A stretch of DNA of 64,000 nt from Escherichia coli (GTDB lineage Bacteria > Pseudomonadota > Gammaproteobacteria > Enterobacterales > Enterobacteriaceae), in NCBI RefSeq assembly GCF_016026235.1, contig NZ_CP065613.1. One strand, 5' to 3'. The notes under the pieces were generated by a model. It did no database searches. It was given only the letters and a program-made list of their open reading frames with translations, and was not told the DNA's origin. This document shows, in pieces, positions 58,869 through 62,124 of this stretch (the first letter of the stretch is position 1; each line of letters opens with the position of its first letter). A program made the translations under genes and the position numbers.

Positions 58869-60186
58869 TTAAGACTTCGTCGATTTCTCAAAGCGGCGCA
58901 GCAACTGATTTCCACGCTCAACGGCGGTATCCAGTGCCTGCTGTGGTGTCTTCTTACCGGTCCACACGCTCTCCAGCTCTTCATCCACAATCACGCGGAT
59001 CTGCGGCATGTTGCCCAGACGCAGTCCTTTGGTGAACGGCAACGGCGGCTTATTCAGCATCTGACGCGTCGCGGTATCCGCCCCTGGGTTTTTCTCATAA
59101 AAGCCCTGCTCACGGGTCAGGTCATACGCTGCTTTGGTGATTGGCAGATAACCGGTTTTCTGATGCCACTCGGCAGCGTTTTCTGGCTTCGCGAGGAAGT
59201 CGAGGAACTTCGCCACGCCGGTATACGTTTCTTTATCTTTGCCCTGCATCACCCACAGGCTGGCCCCGCCGATAATGGCGTTTTGCGGTGCATCTTTCGC
59301 ATCGGCGTCGTAAGGCATCATGCCTACGCCATAGTTAAATTTGGCGTACTCACGAATATTAGCGAGAGAACCGGAAGAGGCGGTGGTCATCGCGCAATCA
59401 CCGTTATAGAACTTCTCGGTGGATTCATCCTTACGCCCGACGTAGCTGAAATCGCCCTTCTTGTTCATCTCTTCGAGCATGGCGATGTGTTTCACCTGCT
59501 CCGGCTTGTTGAACTCCAGCACCGCATCCGTGCCGTCAAAGCCGTTGTTTTTGCTGGCAAACGGCAGACCGTTCCAGGCGCTAAAGTTTTCCAGTTGGAT
59601 CCAGCCCTGCCAGCCGCTGGCGTAGCCGCACTTCATACCGGAGGCTTTCAGTTTTGCAGAATAGTCCGCCAGATCCTGCCAGGTTTTCGGCGGCTGTTCC
59701 GGGTCTAATCCTGCTTTCTTGAAGGCGTCTTTGTTGTAATAGAGAACGGGGGTCGAGCTGTTGAATGGCTGGGAGAGTAAGTGGCCCGTTTTGCTGTCGG
59801 AGTAGTAACCGGAAACCGTCGGCACAAACTGCGACTCATCGAATTGAATCCCCGCCTCTTTAAACACGTCATATACCGGTTTAATGGCTTTCGACGCCAT
59901 CATGGTGGCGGTGCCAACTTCATAAACCTGCAAAATAGCCGGAGCATTGCCGGTACGAAATGCGGCAATCCCCGCGCTTAAATTCTGTTCGTAGTTGCCT
60001 TTATAGGTCGGTACAATTTTGTAATCCGGGTTTTCGGCGTTAAAACGTTGGGCCAGAGAATCCACCTCTTTACCCAGTTCCCCTTCCATAGAATGCCAGA
60101 ACGGAATGGTCGTCACTGCCTGTGCATTCCCCATTAACGCCAGTCCGAGCGCCAGTGCTGAAGCTGTATAATGTATACGGTTTCAT
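58869..60186 (-). pseudogene. ugpB: sn-glycerol-3-phosphate periplasmic binding protein UgpB with apparent +1 frameshift in codons 4-5 (signal-peptide region)
   Basis: Mature-protein ORF (58869..60134) begins [14 protein letters not shown]; the native-type ATG at 60186..60184 (MKP...) is 52 nt upstream, not a multiple of 3; signal-peptide residues (I)[13 protein letters not shown] are encoded in the mature frame but preceded by TGA; the ATG frame ends after about 37 codons. Confidence 0.75.
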
Positions 60187-60279
60187 CGTTTATCTCTCTT
60201 GTTGTACCGAATGCGCGAATTCACGCGTTTTATGCTCGCGGGGTAACATGACATGCTCGAATTACAGAAAAATAACTTT

Positions 60280-60330
60280 TTTGTTACATTTGTAAGATAG
60301 TAAGGTGTCAGAAAGATGACAAGGCGGTGA
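60280..60330 (-). promoter_or_regulatory. ugp promoter region with Pho-box-like repeat (TTGTCATCTTTCTGACAC)
   Basis: Minus-strand 7-4-7 motif close to the PhoB box consensus CTGTCAT-N4-CTGTCAC upstream of ugpB. Confidence 0.5.
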
Positions 60331-60545
60331 CGGTACGGGTGAGGGAAAATGGGAGATGGGGCACGGATATCCCGAGAATGCACTGAAAAGAGGCGATTAA
60401 CGGCCAGCTAATCGCCAGAACTCCTTACCATGAAGAGCAAAAATGGCAGCAAATTCTGCGTCCAGTTTTGCTGCCCGATGAGAGCTACATTTTTCAATTT
60501 TAACAAAAGATTGCCGCGACACTGGTCTAACGGCAAAGAAGATTT

Positions 60546-61292
60546 TCATTGCACCACACTCTGCTTCAGCCGTTCATTGGCGGTCTTAATCCATTCCCGG
60601 TGGTGTTTTCTATAATGAGGTCTTGAGCGTTTAGCCGTATCAACTACAGCAACATACTGCTCGTTGGCTTCACGTAACCGACTCATTTTCGCCAACATTT
60701 CCGCATAGTAAATACGCGCCTGCGGGCCGGGGTAATAAGAAATCAATACTTCAAACTCGCTTTCCGCATCAGCGTATTTTTCTTGTGCGGCTAACGTTCT
60801 GGCAAATAACAAATGCCCGTCTGCCGACTGAAAATCAGGGTTATAACGCATCACATCTTCCAGCGTCTGCTGACAGGCGGCGAACTCCTGAATAGCAAAC
60901 TGTGCCTGCGCCAGGCTTAGCATCATTGCCGCTTCATGGGCGAATATCCCGCTTAACGCCTGCTGATAATGGGGAACAGCTTCGTGATAACGCCCCAGAC
61001 GCGCCAGTTCATTAGCCAACGCATAATGGTTTTGATTCGTCTCGGCAATCGCCAGTTCTTCGGTTAATTTGCGCAGGTGGCGCTCAGGGTTGAGTTTGTC
61101 CTGCAGGCGCATCAGCAAAGTATGCCCGTGACGGTCAGCGCCCGTTTCAGGCAGCATCACTATGACGAAATACGCCACGCAGCCAATCACCGGAAAACAG
61201 AAAATGATAAAAATCCAGTACCGCTCTTGTCCGGTACGGTAAGCGTGAATACAGCAAAGCAGTTCAAGCATGACAACAACGGCATAATGCAT
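60546..61292 (-). CDS. Hypothetical protein: N-terminal two-helix membrane anchor followed by TPR-like helical repeats
   Basis: 248-aa ORF; hydrophobic N-terminus (VVVMLELLCC...IFIIFCFPVIGCVAYFVIVML), then helical repeat region (YHEAVPHYQQAL, YADAESEFEVLISYY, AEMLAKMS); typical E. coli codon usage. Confidence 0.5.
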   Translation of the reverse strand: MHYAVVVMLELLCCIHAYRTGQERYWIFIIFCFPVIGCVAYFVIVMLPETGADRHGHTLLMRLQDKLNPERHLRKLTEELAIAETNQNHYALANELARLGRYHEAVPHYQQALSGIFAHEAAMMLSLAQAQFAIQEFAACQQTLEDVMRYNPDFQSADGHLLFARTLAAQEKYADAESEFEVLISYYPGPQARIYYAEMLAKMSRLREANEQYVAVVDTAKRSRPHYRKHHREWIKTANERLKQSVVQ

Positions 61293-61410
61293 GGGAGGGA
61301 ACCTTTCCGTGGCAAATAAGTGGTCTGGTTTTAATCCTCCCGGTCAGTTGAAACAAGTCTGTATACGGACGAATACCCCGGCAGAACTTAGCTGCTGGGT
61401 TATCGATAAT

Positions 61411-62124
61411 TTACCCGCCTAAATACGCACTTCTCACTGCTTCGTTCGCCAGCAGCGCATCACCAGTATCGGAGAGCACAACATGGCCGTTTTCCAGCAC
61501 GTAGCCGCGATCAGCGAGCTTCAGCGCCTGGTTGGCGTTCTGCTCGACGAGGAAGATAGTCATCCCCTGCTCGCGCAGCTGCTCGATGGTGTCGAAAATT
61601 TGCTGGATGATAATCGGCGCAAGACCGAGCGATGGCTCATCAAGCAACAACAAACGCGGATTGCTCATCAGCGCGCGACCAATCGCCAGCATCTGCTGTT
61701 CACCGCCGGACATGGTGCCTGCCCGCTGAACACGACGCTCATGAAGACGTGGAAACAGCTCATACACCCACTTTATGCGCTCCTGAAACTGATCACGTTC
61801 GGCAAAAAAGCCGCCCATCGCCAGGTTCTCTTCCACCGTCATCCGCGAGAAGACGCGACGCCCTTCCGGGACAATCGCTACCGCTTCGCGCATGATTCTC
61901 GCCGTCTGCCAGTCGGTAATGTCTTTATCATCAAACACAATTCGCCCGCTGGTGGCGCGCGGATCGCCGCATAACGTGCCGAGCAAGGTGGTTTTCCCCG
62001 CCCCGTTCGCGCCAATCAGCGTGACAATCTCGCCCTGATTGATATGCAGGCTCACCTCATGCAGCGCCTGGATTTTGCCGTAGTGGGCGCTGACTTTGTC
62101 AAAGGACAACATGACTTTTTCCAT
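61411..62124 (-). CDS. livF: Branched-chain amino acid ABC transporter ATP-binding protein
   Basis: ORF 61411..62136; start at MEKVMLSFDKV giving 237 aa; Walker A GANGAGKTT. Confidence 0.95.
   Translation of the reverse strand: MEKVMLSFDKVSAHYGKIQALHEVSLHINQGEIVTLIGANGAGKTTLLGTLCGDPRATSGRIVFDDKDITDWQTARIMREAVAIVPEGRRVFSRMTVEENLAMGGFFAERDQFQERIKWVYELFPRLHERRVQRAGTMSGGEQQMLAIGRALMSNPRLLLLDEPSLGLAPIIIQQIFDTIEQLREQGMTIFLVEQNANQALKLADRGYVLENGHVVLSDTGDALLANEAVRSAYLGG

What the first reader, a model, noticed from the sequence alone, without database searches (positions are those of the whole stretch)
60546..61292. Additional membrane-anchored TPR-like ORF between ugpB and livF
Read from the sequence: a 248-aa minus-strand ORF with a hydrophobic two-helix N-terminus and helical repeat-like C-terminal region occupies a spacer that, as I recall, is short and gene-free in K-12. 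Its codon usage looks native rather than foreign. It lies between the Pho-regulated ugp promoter and the liv operon terminus, so it may be a lineage-variable core gene or one simply missing from my recollection of K-12.
Basis: partly seen in the sequence, partly recalled or inferred. Interest (0 to 1): 0.45.

Follow-up and report, generated by a model that had tools for sequence, protein, structure and literature searches.

The report
Membrane-anchored TPR gene missing from K-12
The ORF is a real, already annotated E. coli gene of untested function (ECs_4300 in O157:H7 Sakai) that encodes a small membrane-anchored TPR protein; it is ancestral to Escherichia but missing from K-12 and about 88% of E. 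coli genomes.

Summary
Window 60546..61292 (-) is a 248-aa ORF with an N-terminal hydrophobic helical hairpin and a C-terminal TPR domain.

- **Identity:** it is RefSeq WP_000558842.1, "tetratricopeptide repeat protein", and ECs_4300 in O157:H7 Sakai.
- **Distribution in E. coli:** K-12 MG1655 has only a 398-bp gene-free ugpB-livF spacer. That spacer carries a livF terminator and REP-like palindromes. The gene is found in 659 of 5426 complete E. coli genomes, always on the chromosome.
- **Ancestry:** syntenic orthologues lie between livF and ugpB in E. albertii, E. whittamii, two unnamed Escherichia species, Citrobacter and Pseudocitrobacter. E. fergusonii has a 94%-identical protein, but its locus was not examined. 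The gene is therefore ancestral and was lost in most E. coli; it is not an acquired island.
- **Selection:** dN/dS within Escherichia is 0.07-0.2.
- **Family:** at least 677 clusters (50% identity) of about 245-aa full-length relatives exist. The named ones are Gammaproteobacteria. All are stand-alone genes, and none has a name beyond generic labels.
- **Fold:** generic TPR.

The most likely role is an inner-membrane-tethered protein-binding scaffold. Its partner and membrane topology are unknown. This is an ordinary, already annotated gene of low interest. In passing, ugpB in the window carries a private 1-bp insertion at codon 4.

The parts
60546..61292 (-). Coding sequence of the 248-aa TPR protein (stop codon 60546-60548). 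It equals WP_000558842.1 / ECs_4300.
   Evidence: ORF. The O157:H7 RefSeq CDS is identical in protein sequence. dN/dS is 0.07-0.2. The family alignment runs from residue 1.
61149..61292 (-). Residues 1-48: N-terminal hydrophobic helical hairpin (helices 2-20 and 23-50, kinked at P34) with the conserved positions H16, G21, W26, P34, G37, Y41 and P48. It resembles PLDc_N and is the presumed membrane anchor.
   Evidence: Hydropathy. AF2 helices. PLDc_N scores 20.0 bits against a 23.3 cut-off at residues 26-44, and 10 of 31 relatives match it at E<=0.01. These positions are conserved in 86-99% of 175 sequences.
60549..61043 (-). Residues 84-248: TPR domain of four helix pairs (86-112, 121-150, 157-186, 190-222) plus C-terminal capping helices. 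Family-specific motifs are NPDFxSADGHLLYAR (residues 151-165) and YYPGP (186-190).
61293..61373 (-). Upstream block that travels with the gene. It holds a Shine-Dalgarno-like GGAAAGG (61302-61308, 9 nt before the ATG) and a weak promoter-like TTGTTT-17 nt-TAAAAC.
   Evidence: The block is nearly identical in all Escherichia loci, including E. whittamii and E. albertii, where extra DNA separates it from livF. ACAGACTTGTTTCA is also conserved in C. freundii. The hexamers were read from the sequence. The consensus scan found no strong sigma-70 site here, so a promoter is inferred, not shown.
61377..61399 (-). Imperfect hairpin CCCAGCAG-N7-CTGCCGGG, 11 nt after the livF stop. It may be a weak liv terminator.
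60397..60507 (-). Relic of the C-terminal third of a Phd/YefM-type antitoxin gene. It lies inside a 50-aa ORF (60397..60549) whose ATG overlaps the TPR stop codon (ATGA).
   Evidence: BLASTP against the C. freundii Phd antitoxin, which sits next to a Fic/Doc gene between the TPR gene and ugpB: 14 identities in 36 residues, E=9e-09 for the single comparison. The ORF has no Pfam hit of its own. The segment is absent in E. whittamii and Escherichia sp. E1V33.
60382..60416 (-). Terminator-like hairpin GGCGATTAGC-TGGCC-GTTAATCGCC followed by TCTTTTCAGT. It probably ends the TPR transcript upstream of the ugp promoter.
   Evidence: Terminator scan.
60370..61410 (.). The 1041-bp allele-specific segment. 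In K-12-like and ST131 genomes it is replaced by about 215 bp that hold a livF terminator hairpin and two REP-like palindromes.
   Evidence: Four-way alignment: divergence starts at the base after the livF stop codon and ends at TATCCGTGCCCC. blastn confirms that the shared sequence resumes at window 60369. There are no flanking direct or inverted repeats.

Best explanation
The ORF is a genuine protein-coding gene inherited vertically in Escherichia. It encodes a small protein with two parts. The N-terminal hydrophobic hairpin resembles the PLDc_N hairpin at the start of cardiolipin synthases and most likely tethers the protein to the inner membrane. The C-terminal domain of four TPR helix pairs most likely acts as a protein-binding scaffold at the membrane surface. 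By charge distribution, and by analogy with PLDc_N proteins, that surface is more likely the cytoplasmic face (about 60:40). The gene is ancestral to Escherichia and its close relatives at the livF-ugpB position. It is dispensable. K-12 and most other E. coli carry an allele in which the gene, its upstream block and a downstream antitoxin relic are replaced by a short spacer with REP-like palindromes. Shown here: gene reality, distribution, synteny, purifying selection, the TPR fold and the absence from K-12. Inferred: membrane insertion, topology, the scaffold role and an independent promoter. The binding partner is unknown.
Against: No experiment or paper addresses this protein. The charge bias is weak, because both the loop and the post-hairpin segment are net positive, so topology is unresolved. 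PLDc_N scores below its gathering threshold. No conserved neighbouring gene points to a partner. Loss in about 88% of E. coli and a frameshift in the E. albertii genome sampled here (strain NBRC 107761) show that the function is dispensable. No strong promoter was detected.
Confidence: 0.8

Rival explanations
1. The topology is reversed. The inter-helix loop is cytoplasmic, the second helix acts as a signal anchor, and the TPR domain is periplasmic. The protein would then work like YfgM or CpoB/YbgF as an envelope chaperone or adaptor.
Confidence: 0.3
2. The gene is a horizontally acquired island, an 'O-island' of the O157:H7 type, inserted between livF and ugpB in some E. coli lineages.
For: It is absent from K-12 and most E. 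coli. Its GC3 of 0.53 is lower than the flanking genes at 0.65-0.74. The spot is a hotspot that carries a toxin-antitoxin pair, a SUKH gene and an IS200-like transposase in other species.
Against: The same position is occupied in every Escherichia species locus examined and in Citrobacter and Pseudocitrobacter, and divergence rises with taxonomic distance: 93-96% identity within Escherichia, 75% and 69% outside. There are no flanking repeats. No integrase or tRNA lies in the spacer. The gene is never on a plasmid. The K-12 allele carries REP-like palindromes in its place.
Confidence: 0.07
3. The ORF is a decaying or non-functional remnant that is annotated but not expressed as a working protein.
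For: It has been lost from about 88% of E. coli genomes and is frameshifted in E. albertii NBRC 107761. No strong promoter was found, and there is no literature.
Against: dN/dS is 0.07-0.2. The gene is annotated as an intact CDS in all 60 sampled records spread over 94-100% identity. Length and motifs are conserved across at least 677 clusters. The upstream block is conserved.
Confidence: 0.05
4. The protein is an accessory component of the neighbouring Liv (branched-chain amino acid) or Ugp (glycerol-3-phosphate) ABC transporters.
For: Its position between the two operons is conserved on the same strand in Enterobacteriaceae. Only a weak hairpin separates it from livF in E. coli.
Against: Relatives in Pseudomonas, Cellvibrionales and metagenomes sit in eight different, unrelated contexts with no liv or ugp genes. 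In the Pseudocitrobacter-type loci, REP-like palindromes followed by a GC-rich hairpin with a T-run lie between livF and the gene. K-12 has both transporter operons but not this gene; from general knowledge, both transporters are functional in K-12.
Confidence: 0.05

Closest known systems
ECs_4300 of E. coli O157:H7 Sakai / RefSeq WP_000558842.1 'tetratricopeptide repeat protein'
   Same: The protein sequence is identical and the position between livF and ugpB is the same.
   Different: Nothing differs. This is the same gene, annotated but uncharacterised.
PLDc_N hairpin (PF13396), the N-terminal two-helix membrane segment of cardiolipin synthases such as ClsA
   Same: Residues 26-44 align to positions 22-40 of the 42-position profile. 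The W-x7-P-x2-G-x3-Y pattern is conserved in 94-99% of relatives. Residues 22-46 also align to the N-terminus of the cardiolipin synthase model TIGR04265.
   Different: The score of 20.0 bits is below the 23.3 gathering threshold. The hairpin is followed by a TPR domain, not by PLD catalytic domains.
LapB/YciM (general knowledge: an inner-membrane-anchored cytoplasmic TPR adaptor that couples LpxC to FtsH)
   Same: The overall design is the same: an N-terminal membrane anchor followed by a TPR scaffold at the membrane surface.
   Different: There is no LapB match among the NCBIfam hits at E<=1. The protein is 248 aa, against about 389 aa for LapB. It has a two-helix hairpin where LapB has one helix. 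It has no C-terminal rubredoxin-type Cys cluster, since C140 is the only Cys outside the hairpin (read from the sequence).
CpoB/YbgF (TIGR02795) and YfgM, small envelope TPR proteins
   Different: The score of 31.6 bits is far below the 90.1 cut-off. The protein has no cleavable signal peptide and no N-terminal coiled coil. The similarity is no better than to many unrelated TPR proteins.
MamA, consensus TPR proteins and APC/C subunit Cdc16
   Different: Sequence identity is only 9-18%. The matches show generic fold similarity and carry no functional implication.

Membership tests
TPR repeat proteins (Pfam clan TPR) | Sequence match to TPR profiles above the curated threshold | tested here: met
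   TPR_19 scores 38.7 bits (cut-off 25) and TPR_2 scores 29.8 bits (cut-off 27). All 31 relatives match TPR_19, TPR_14, TPR_16 and TPR_6.
TPR repeat proteins (Pfam clan TPR) | Right-handed superhelix of antiparallel helix pairs | tested here: met
PLDc_N (PF13396) membrane hairpin | Profile match above the gathering threshold | tested here: inconclusive
   The score is 20.0 bits against 23.3, with E=6.9e-4. Ten of 31 relatives match at E<=0.01, the best at 2.7e-5. The profile's core positions are conserved in the family.
CpoB/YbgF (TIGR02795) | Equivalog score of at least 90.1 bits | tested here: not met
   The score is 31.6 bits, and it covers the TPR part only, residues 87-157.
HemY (TIGR00540) | Score of at least 142 bits | tested here: not met
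   The score is 16.8 bits.
LapB/YciM | Profile match and a C-terminal rubredoxin-like metal site | tested here: not met
   No LapB model appears among the NCBIfam matches at E<=1. The soluble domain has a single Cys, C140 (sequence).
Anti-phage defence proteins (PADLOC-DB) | Match to any defence-system model | tested here: not met
   There are no hits at E<=0.01.
Mobile genomic island | Flanking repeats, an integrase or tRNA target, or presence on mobile replicons | tested here: not met
   There are no direct or inverted repeats. All 660 matched places are chromosomal. The gene is syntenic across genera.
Known structured RNA in the spacer (Rfam 15) | Covariance-model match | tested here: not met
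   There are no matches at E<=0.1 in 59900-61700.

The most novel reading that the evidence does not exclude
The roughly 245-aa architecture, a PLDc_N-like hairpin followed by four TPR pairs, defines a widespread and wholly uncharacterised protein family of at least 677 clusters at 50% identity; the named members are Gammaproteobacteria. It has strictly conserved membrane residues (H16, W26, P34, G37, Y41, P48) and a family-specific SADGHLLYAR motif. It could be a dedicated membrane-tethered adaptor, for example one that recruits a client to a protease or to a lipid-metabolism enzyme in the way LapB does. E. coli lineages such as O157:H7 would then retain a regulatory function that K-12 lacks.
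Probability: 0.12. Interest if true: 0.45.

Novelty: already known. Interest (0 to 1): 0.18.

Why it matters
The importance is modest. The finding shows a blind spot that comes from using K-12 as the reference: a gene ancestral to the genus, kept in O157:H7 and other lineages, is missing from the laboratory strain and so has never been studied. The family is broad and conserved but has no function assigned, which makes it a reasonable low-priority target for functional genomics. The livF-ugpB spacer is also a small hotspot of gene gain and loss: REP-like elements, a toxin-antitoxin pair, a SUKH gene and an IS200-like transposase occupy it in different species. Nothing here challenges current understanding.

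Tried and rejected
- **Solved structures by sequence:** only weak consensus-TPR matches, with E>=0.0036.
- **Gene neighbourhood:** eight distant relatives showed no conserved neighbour.
- **Names of relatives:** cluster look-ups gave only "hypothetical protein".
- **Other searches:** PADLOC, Rfam and repeat searches were all empty.
- **Topology:** the positive-inside count over 175 sequences was not decisive.
- **Rejected readings:** an acquired island, a Liv or Ugp accessory subunit, a pseudogene, a defence gene, and membership of the CpoB, HemY or LapB families.

Full report
**Observation.** The ORF listing returns a 248-aa ORF with an ATG start at window 60546..61292 on the minus strand, exactly as described. 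Its N-terminus is strongly hydrophobic: Kyte-Doolittle 15-residue means are 2.07 for residues 1-18 and 2.4-2.5 for residues 25-45. The rest matches TPR profiles above Pfam's curated cut-offs, with TPR_19 at 38.7 bits against 25 and TPR_2 at 29.8 bits against 27. The ORF lies between livF (stop codon 61411-61413) and the ugpB start (60186). The spacer is about 1224 bp here and in O157:H7. In K-12 MG1655 it is 398 bp with no annotated gene.

**Already annotated.** The gene is a RefSeq CDS, WP_000558842.1 "tetratricopeptide repeat protein", in O157:H7 genomes. In the Sakai reference it is ECs_4300, "hypothetical protein". Its protein sequence is identical to the window's.

**Distribution in E. 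coli.** A megablast of the ORF against 5426 complete E. coli genomes finds it in 659 of them. All 660 matched places are chromosomal. All 60 records sampled across 94-100% identity annotate it as an intact CDS. The carriers include O157:H7, O145:H28 and SMS-3-5. From general knowledge these are phylogroups E and F.

**What K-12 has instead.** A four-way alignment shows that K-12-like and ST131 genomes differ from the window from the first base after the livF stop codon down to TATCCGTGCCCC.
- Shared sequence resumes at window 60369.
- The 1041-bp segment 60370-61410 is replaced by about 215 bp. These hold a hairpin with a T-run (GGAGTC-AAAA-GACTCC-TTT) and two palindromes that I recognise from general knowledge as REP elements.
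- No direct or inverted repeats flank the window segment, and Rfam finds nothing there.

**Ancestral, not acquired.** A scan of one genome per species found the gene in E. albertii, E. whittamii, two unnamed Escherichia species, Citrobacter sp. NCU1 and a Pseudocitrobacter MAG.
- The protein search added E. fergusonii (94% identity) and C. freundii (75%).
- tblastn shows livF immediately upstream in every one of these loci, and ugpB downstream in all but one.
- Identity falls with taxonomic distance: 93-96% within Escherichia, then 75% and 69% outside it.
- The simplest history is an ancestral enterobacterial gene that most E. coli lost. K-12-like and ST131 share the same junctions, which suggests a single event whose allele later spread.

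**A real coding gene.** Nei-Gojobori dN/dS between Escherichia alleles is 0.07-0.2. Against Citrobacter, synonymous sites are saturated while dN is 0.16. An upstream block of about 80 bp (61293-61373) is nearly invariant across Escherichia. This block includes a GGAAAGG Shine-Dalgarno-like element 9 nt before the ATG. It is kept even where extra DNA separates it from livF in E. whittamii and E. albertii. A terminator-like hairpin follows at 60392-60416. The consensus scan found no strong sigma-70 promoter. An independent promoter is therefore inferred, and read-through from livF past a weak hairpin (61377-61399) remains possible.

**The family.** A profile of 31 relatives searched against 1.84 billion representative proteins gives 677 clusters at E<=1e-30 and 2056 at E<=1e-10. 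Nearly all of the top 150 are 240-256 aa and match from end to end.
- Named members are Pseudomonas and Exilibacterium as well as Enterobacteriaceae. The others are "hypothetical protein" from metagenomes.
- H16, W26, G37, Y41 and P48 in the hydrophobic hairpin, and A164 and A176 in the TPR domain, are at least 97% conserved over 175 sequences. P34, P69, L161 and G189 are 94-95% conserved.
- The motifs NPDFxSADGHLLYAR and YYPGP stand out in the 31-sequence alignment.
- In eight distant genomes the gene stands alone in eight different neighbourhoods. Context therefore gives no partner, and it argues against a link to Liv or Ugp.

**Structure.** AlphaFold2 run on the family alignment gives mean pLDDT 87 and pTM 0.69.
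- Helices 2-20, 23-32 and 34-50 form the hairpin, which is kinked at P34.
- Residues 51-60 form a low-confidence linker.
- Two helices follow at 54-82, then four TPR-like pairs at 86-222, then capping helices.
- Sequence search of the PDB gives nothing better than E=0.0036.

**The membrane segment.** Residues 26-44 align to PLDc_N (PF13396) at 20.0 bits, just under the 23.3 threshold. Ten of 31 relatives match it at E<=0.01. Residues 22-46 also align weakly to the N-terminus of the cardiolipin synthase model TIGR04265. Membership is therefore plausible but formally inconclusive.

**Topology.** Across 175 sequences, three regions were compared.

| Region | Charge |
|---|---|
| N-terminus | uncharged |
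| 7-residue loop between the helices | net +1.65 |
| 15 residues after the second helix | net +2.0 (3.1 K+R) |

This weakly favours both termini, and so the TPR domain, being in the cytoplasm. From general knowledge, that is the arrangement usually assumed for PLDc_N-anchored cardiolipin synthases. I put this at about 60:40 over a periplasmic TPR domain.

**Mechanism.** The best-supported reading is a small inner-membrane-tethered TPR scaffold that binds an unknown protein partner at the membrane surface. It resembles LapB/YciM or YfgM in design but belongs to neither family. The CpoB, HemY and LapB tests failed, and PADLOC found nothing. The function is dispensable: about 88% of E. coli genomes lack the gene, and the copy in E. 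albertii NBRC 107761 is frameshifted near residue 185.

**Verdict.** The feature is an ordinary, already annotated, uncharacterised gene. Interest is low. The only open question is what this broad family does.

**Side observations.**
1. ugpB in the window has an extra A at 60176 (minus-strand reading), just after codon 4. This shifts the signal-peptide frame. None of 5424 E. coli genomes shares it; the best matches listed are all 140 of 141 bases.
2. The 50-aa ORF at 60397..60549, which overlaps the TPR stop codon, ends in a relic of a Phd/YefM antitoxin.
3. The spacer is a hotspot with different contents in different species.

Noticed in passing
window 60176 (ugpB, minus strand; native start ATG at 60186-60184): ugpB has a 1-bp insertion after codon 4: ATGAAACCGTATACATT against ATGAAACCGT-TACATT in all compared genomes. 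The native start is therefore out of frame, and the longest ORF (421 aa, from the ATG at 60134) lacks the signal peptide. The eight best matches listed from 5424 E. coli genomes are all 140 of 141 bases, so none shares the extra base. It is either a private frameshift that makes ugpB a pseudogene or a sequencing error.
   Followed up: partly
window 60397-60549 (minus strand): A 50-aa ORF starts at an ATGA overlap with the TPR stop codon. Its last 36 residues are 39% identical (E=9e-09 for the single comparison) to the C-terminus of a Phd/YefM antitoxin. In C. freundii that antitoxin sits next to a Fic/Doc toxin gene between the TPR gene and ugpB. The ORF is most likely a toxin-antitoxin relic. 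The segment is absent in E. whittamii and Escherichia sp. E1V33.
   Followed up: partly
L002 1587-1984, L003 2587-2982 and L028 127-524 (K-12-type ugpB-livF spacer): In place of the TPR gene, K-12-like and ST131 genomes carry a livF terminator hairpin and two REP-like palindromes: GCCTGATGCGCTGCGCTTATCAGGCCTAC and GTAGGCCTGATAAGGCGTTTACGCCGCATCCGGCA. Both lineages have the same junctions. Similar REP-like palindromes lie between livF and the TPR gene in Pseudocitrobacter and in the metagenomic enterobacterium L013.
   Followed up: partly
L019 3744-4943 (Escherichia sp. MOD1-EC7003): Downstream of the TPR gene, starting at the same ATGA overlap, lies a 231-aa SMI1/KNR4 (SUKH-1) family gene followed by an IS200-like Y1 transposase. 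No ugpB lies within 3 kb. The locus is a hotspot for variable cargo.
   Followed up: partly
L022 2477-2910 (E. whittamii) and L023 (E. albertii): About 410 bp of extra DNA lies between livF and the TPR gene's conserved upstream block. In the E. whittamii sequence that was read, it appears to encode a small hydrophobic protein; the ORF was read by eye and was not analysed.
   Followed up: no
L023 3001-3750 (E. albertii NBRC 107761): The TPR orthologue is frameshifted near residue 185 (YYPGP becomes ITQARRR, then a stop). It is a pseudogene in that strain or an assembly error.
   Followed up: no
L005 6850-8324 (C. freundii): Four extra genes lie between the TPR gene and ugpB: a 93-aa and a 135-aa ORF with no Pfam match, then a PhdYeFM antitoxin and a Fic-domain toxin.
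   Followed up: partly
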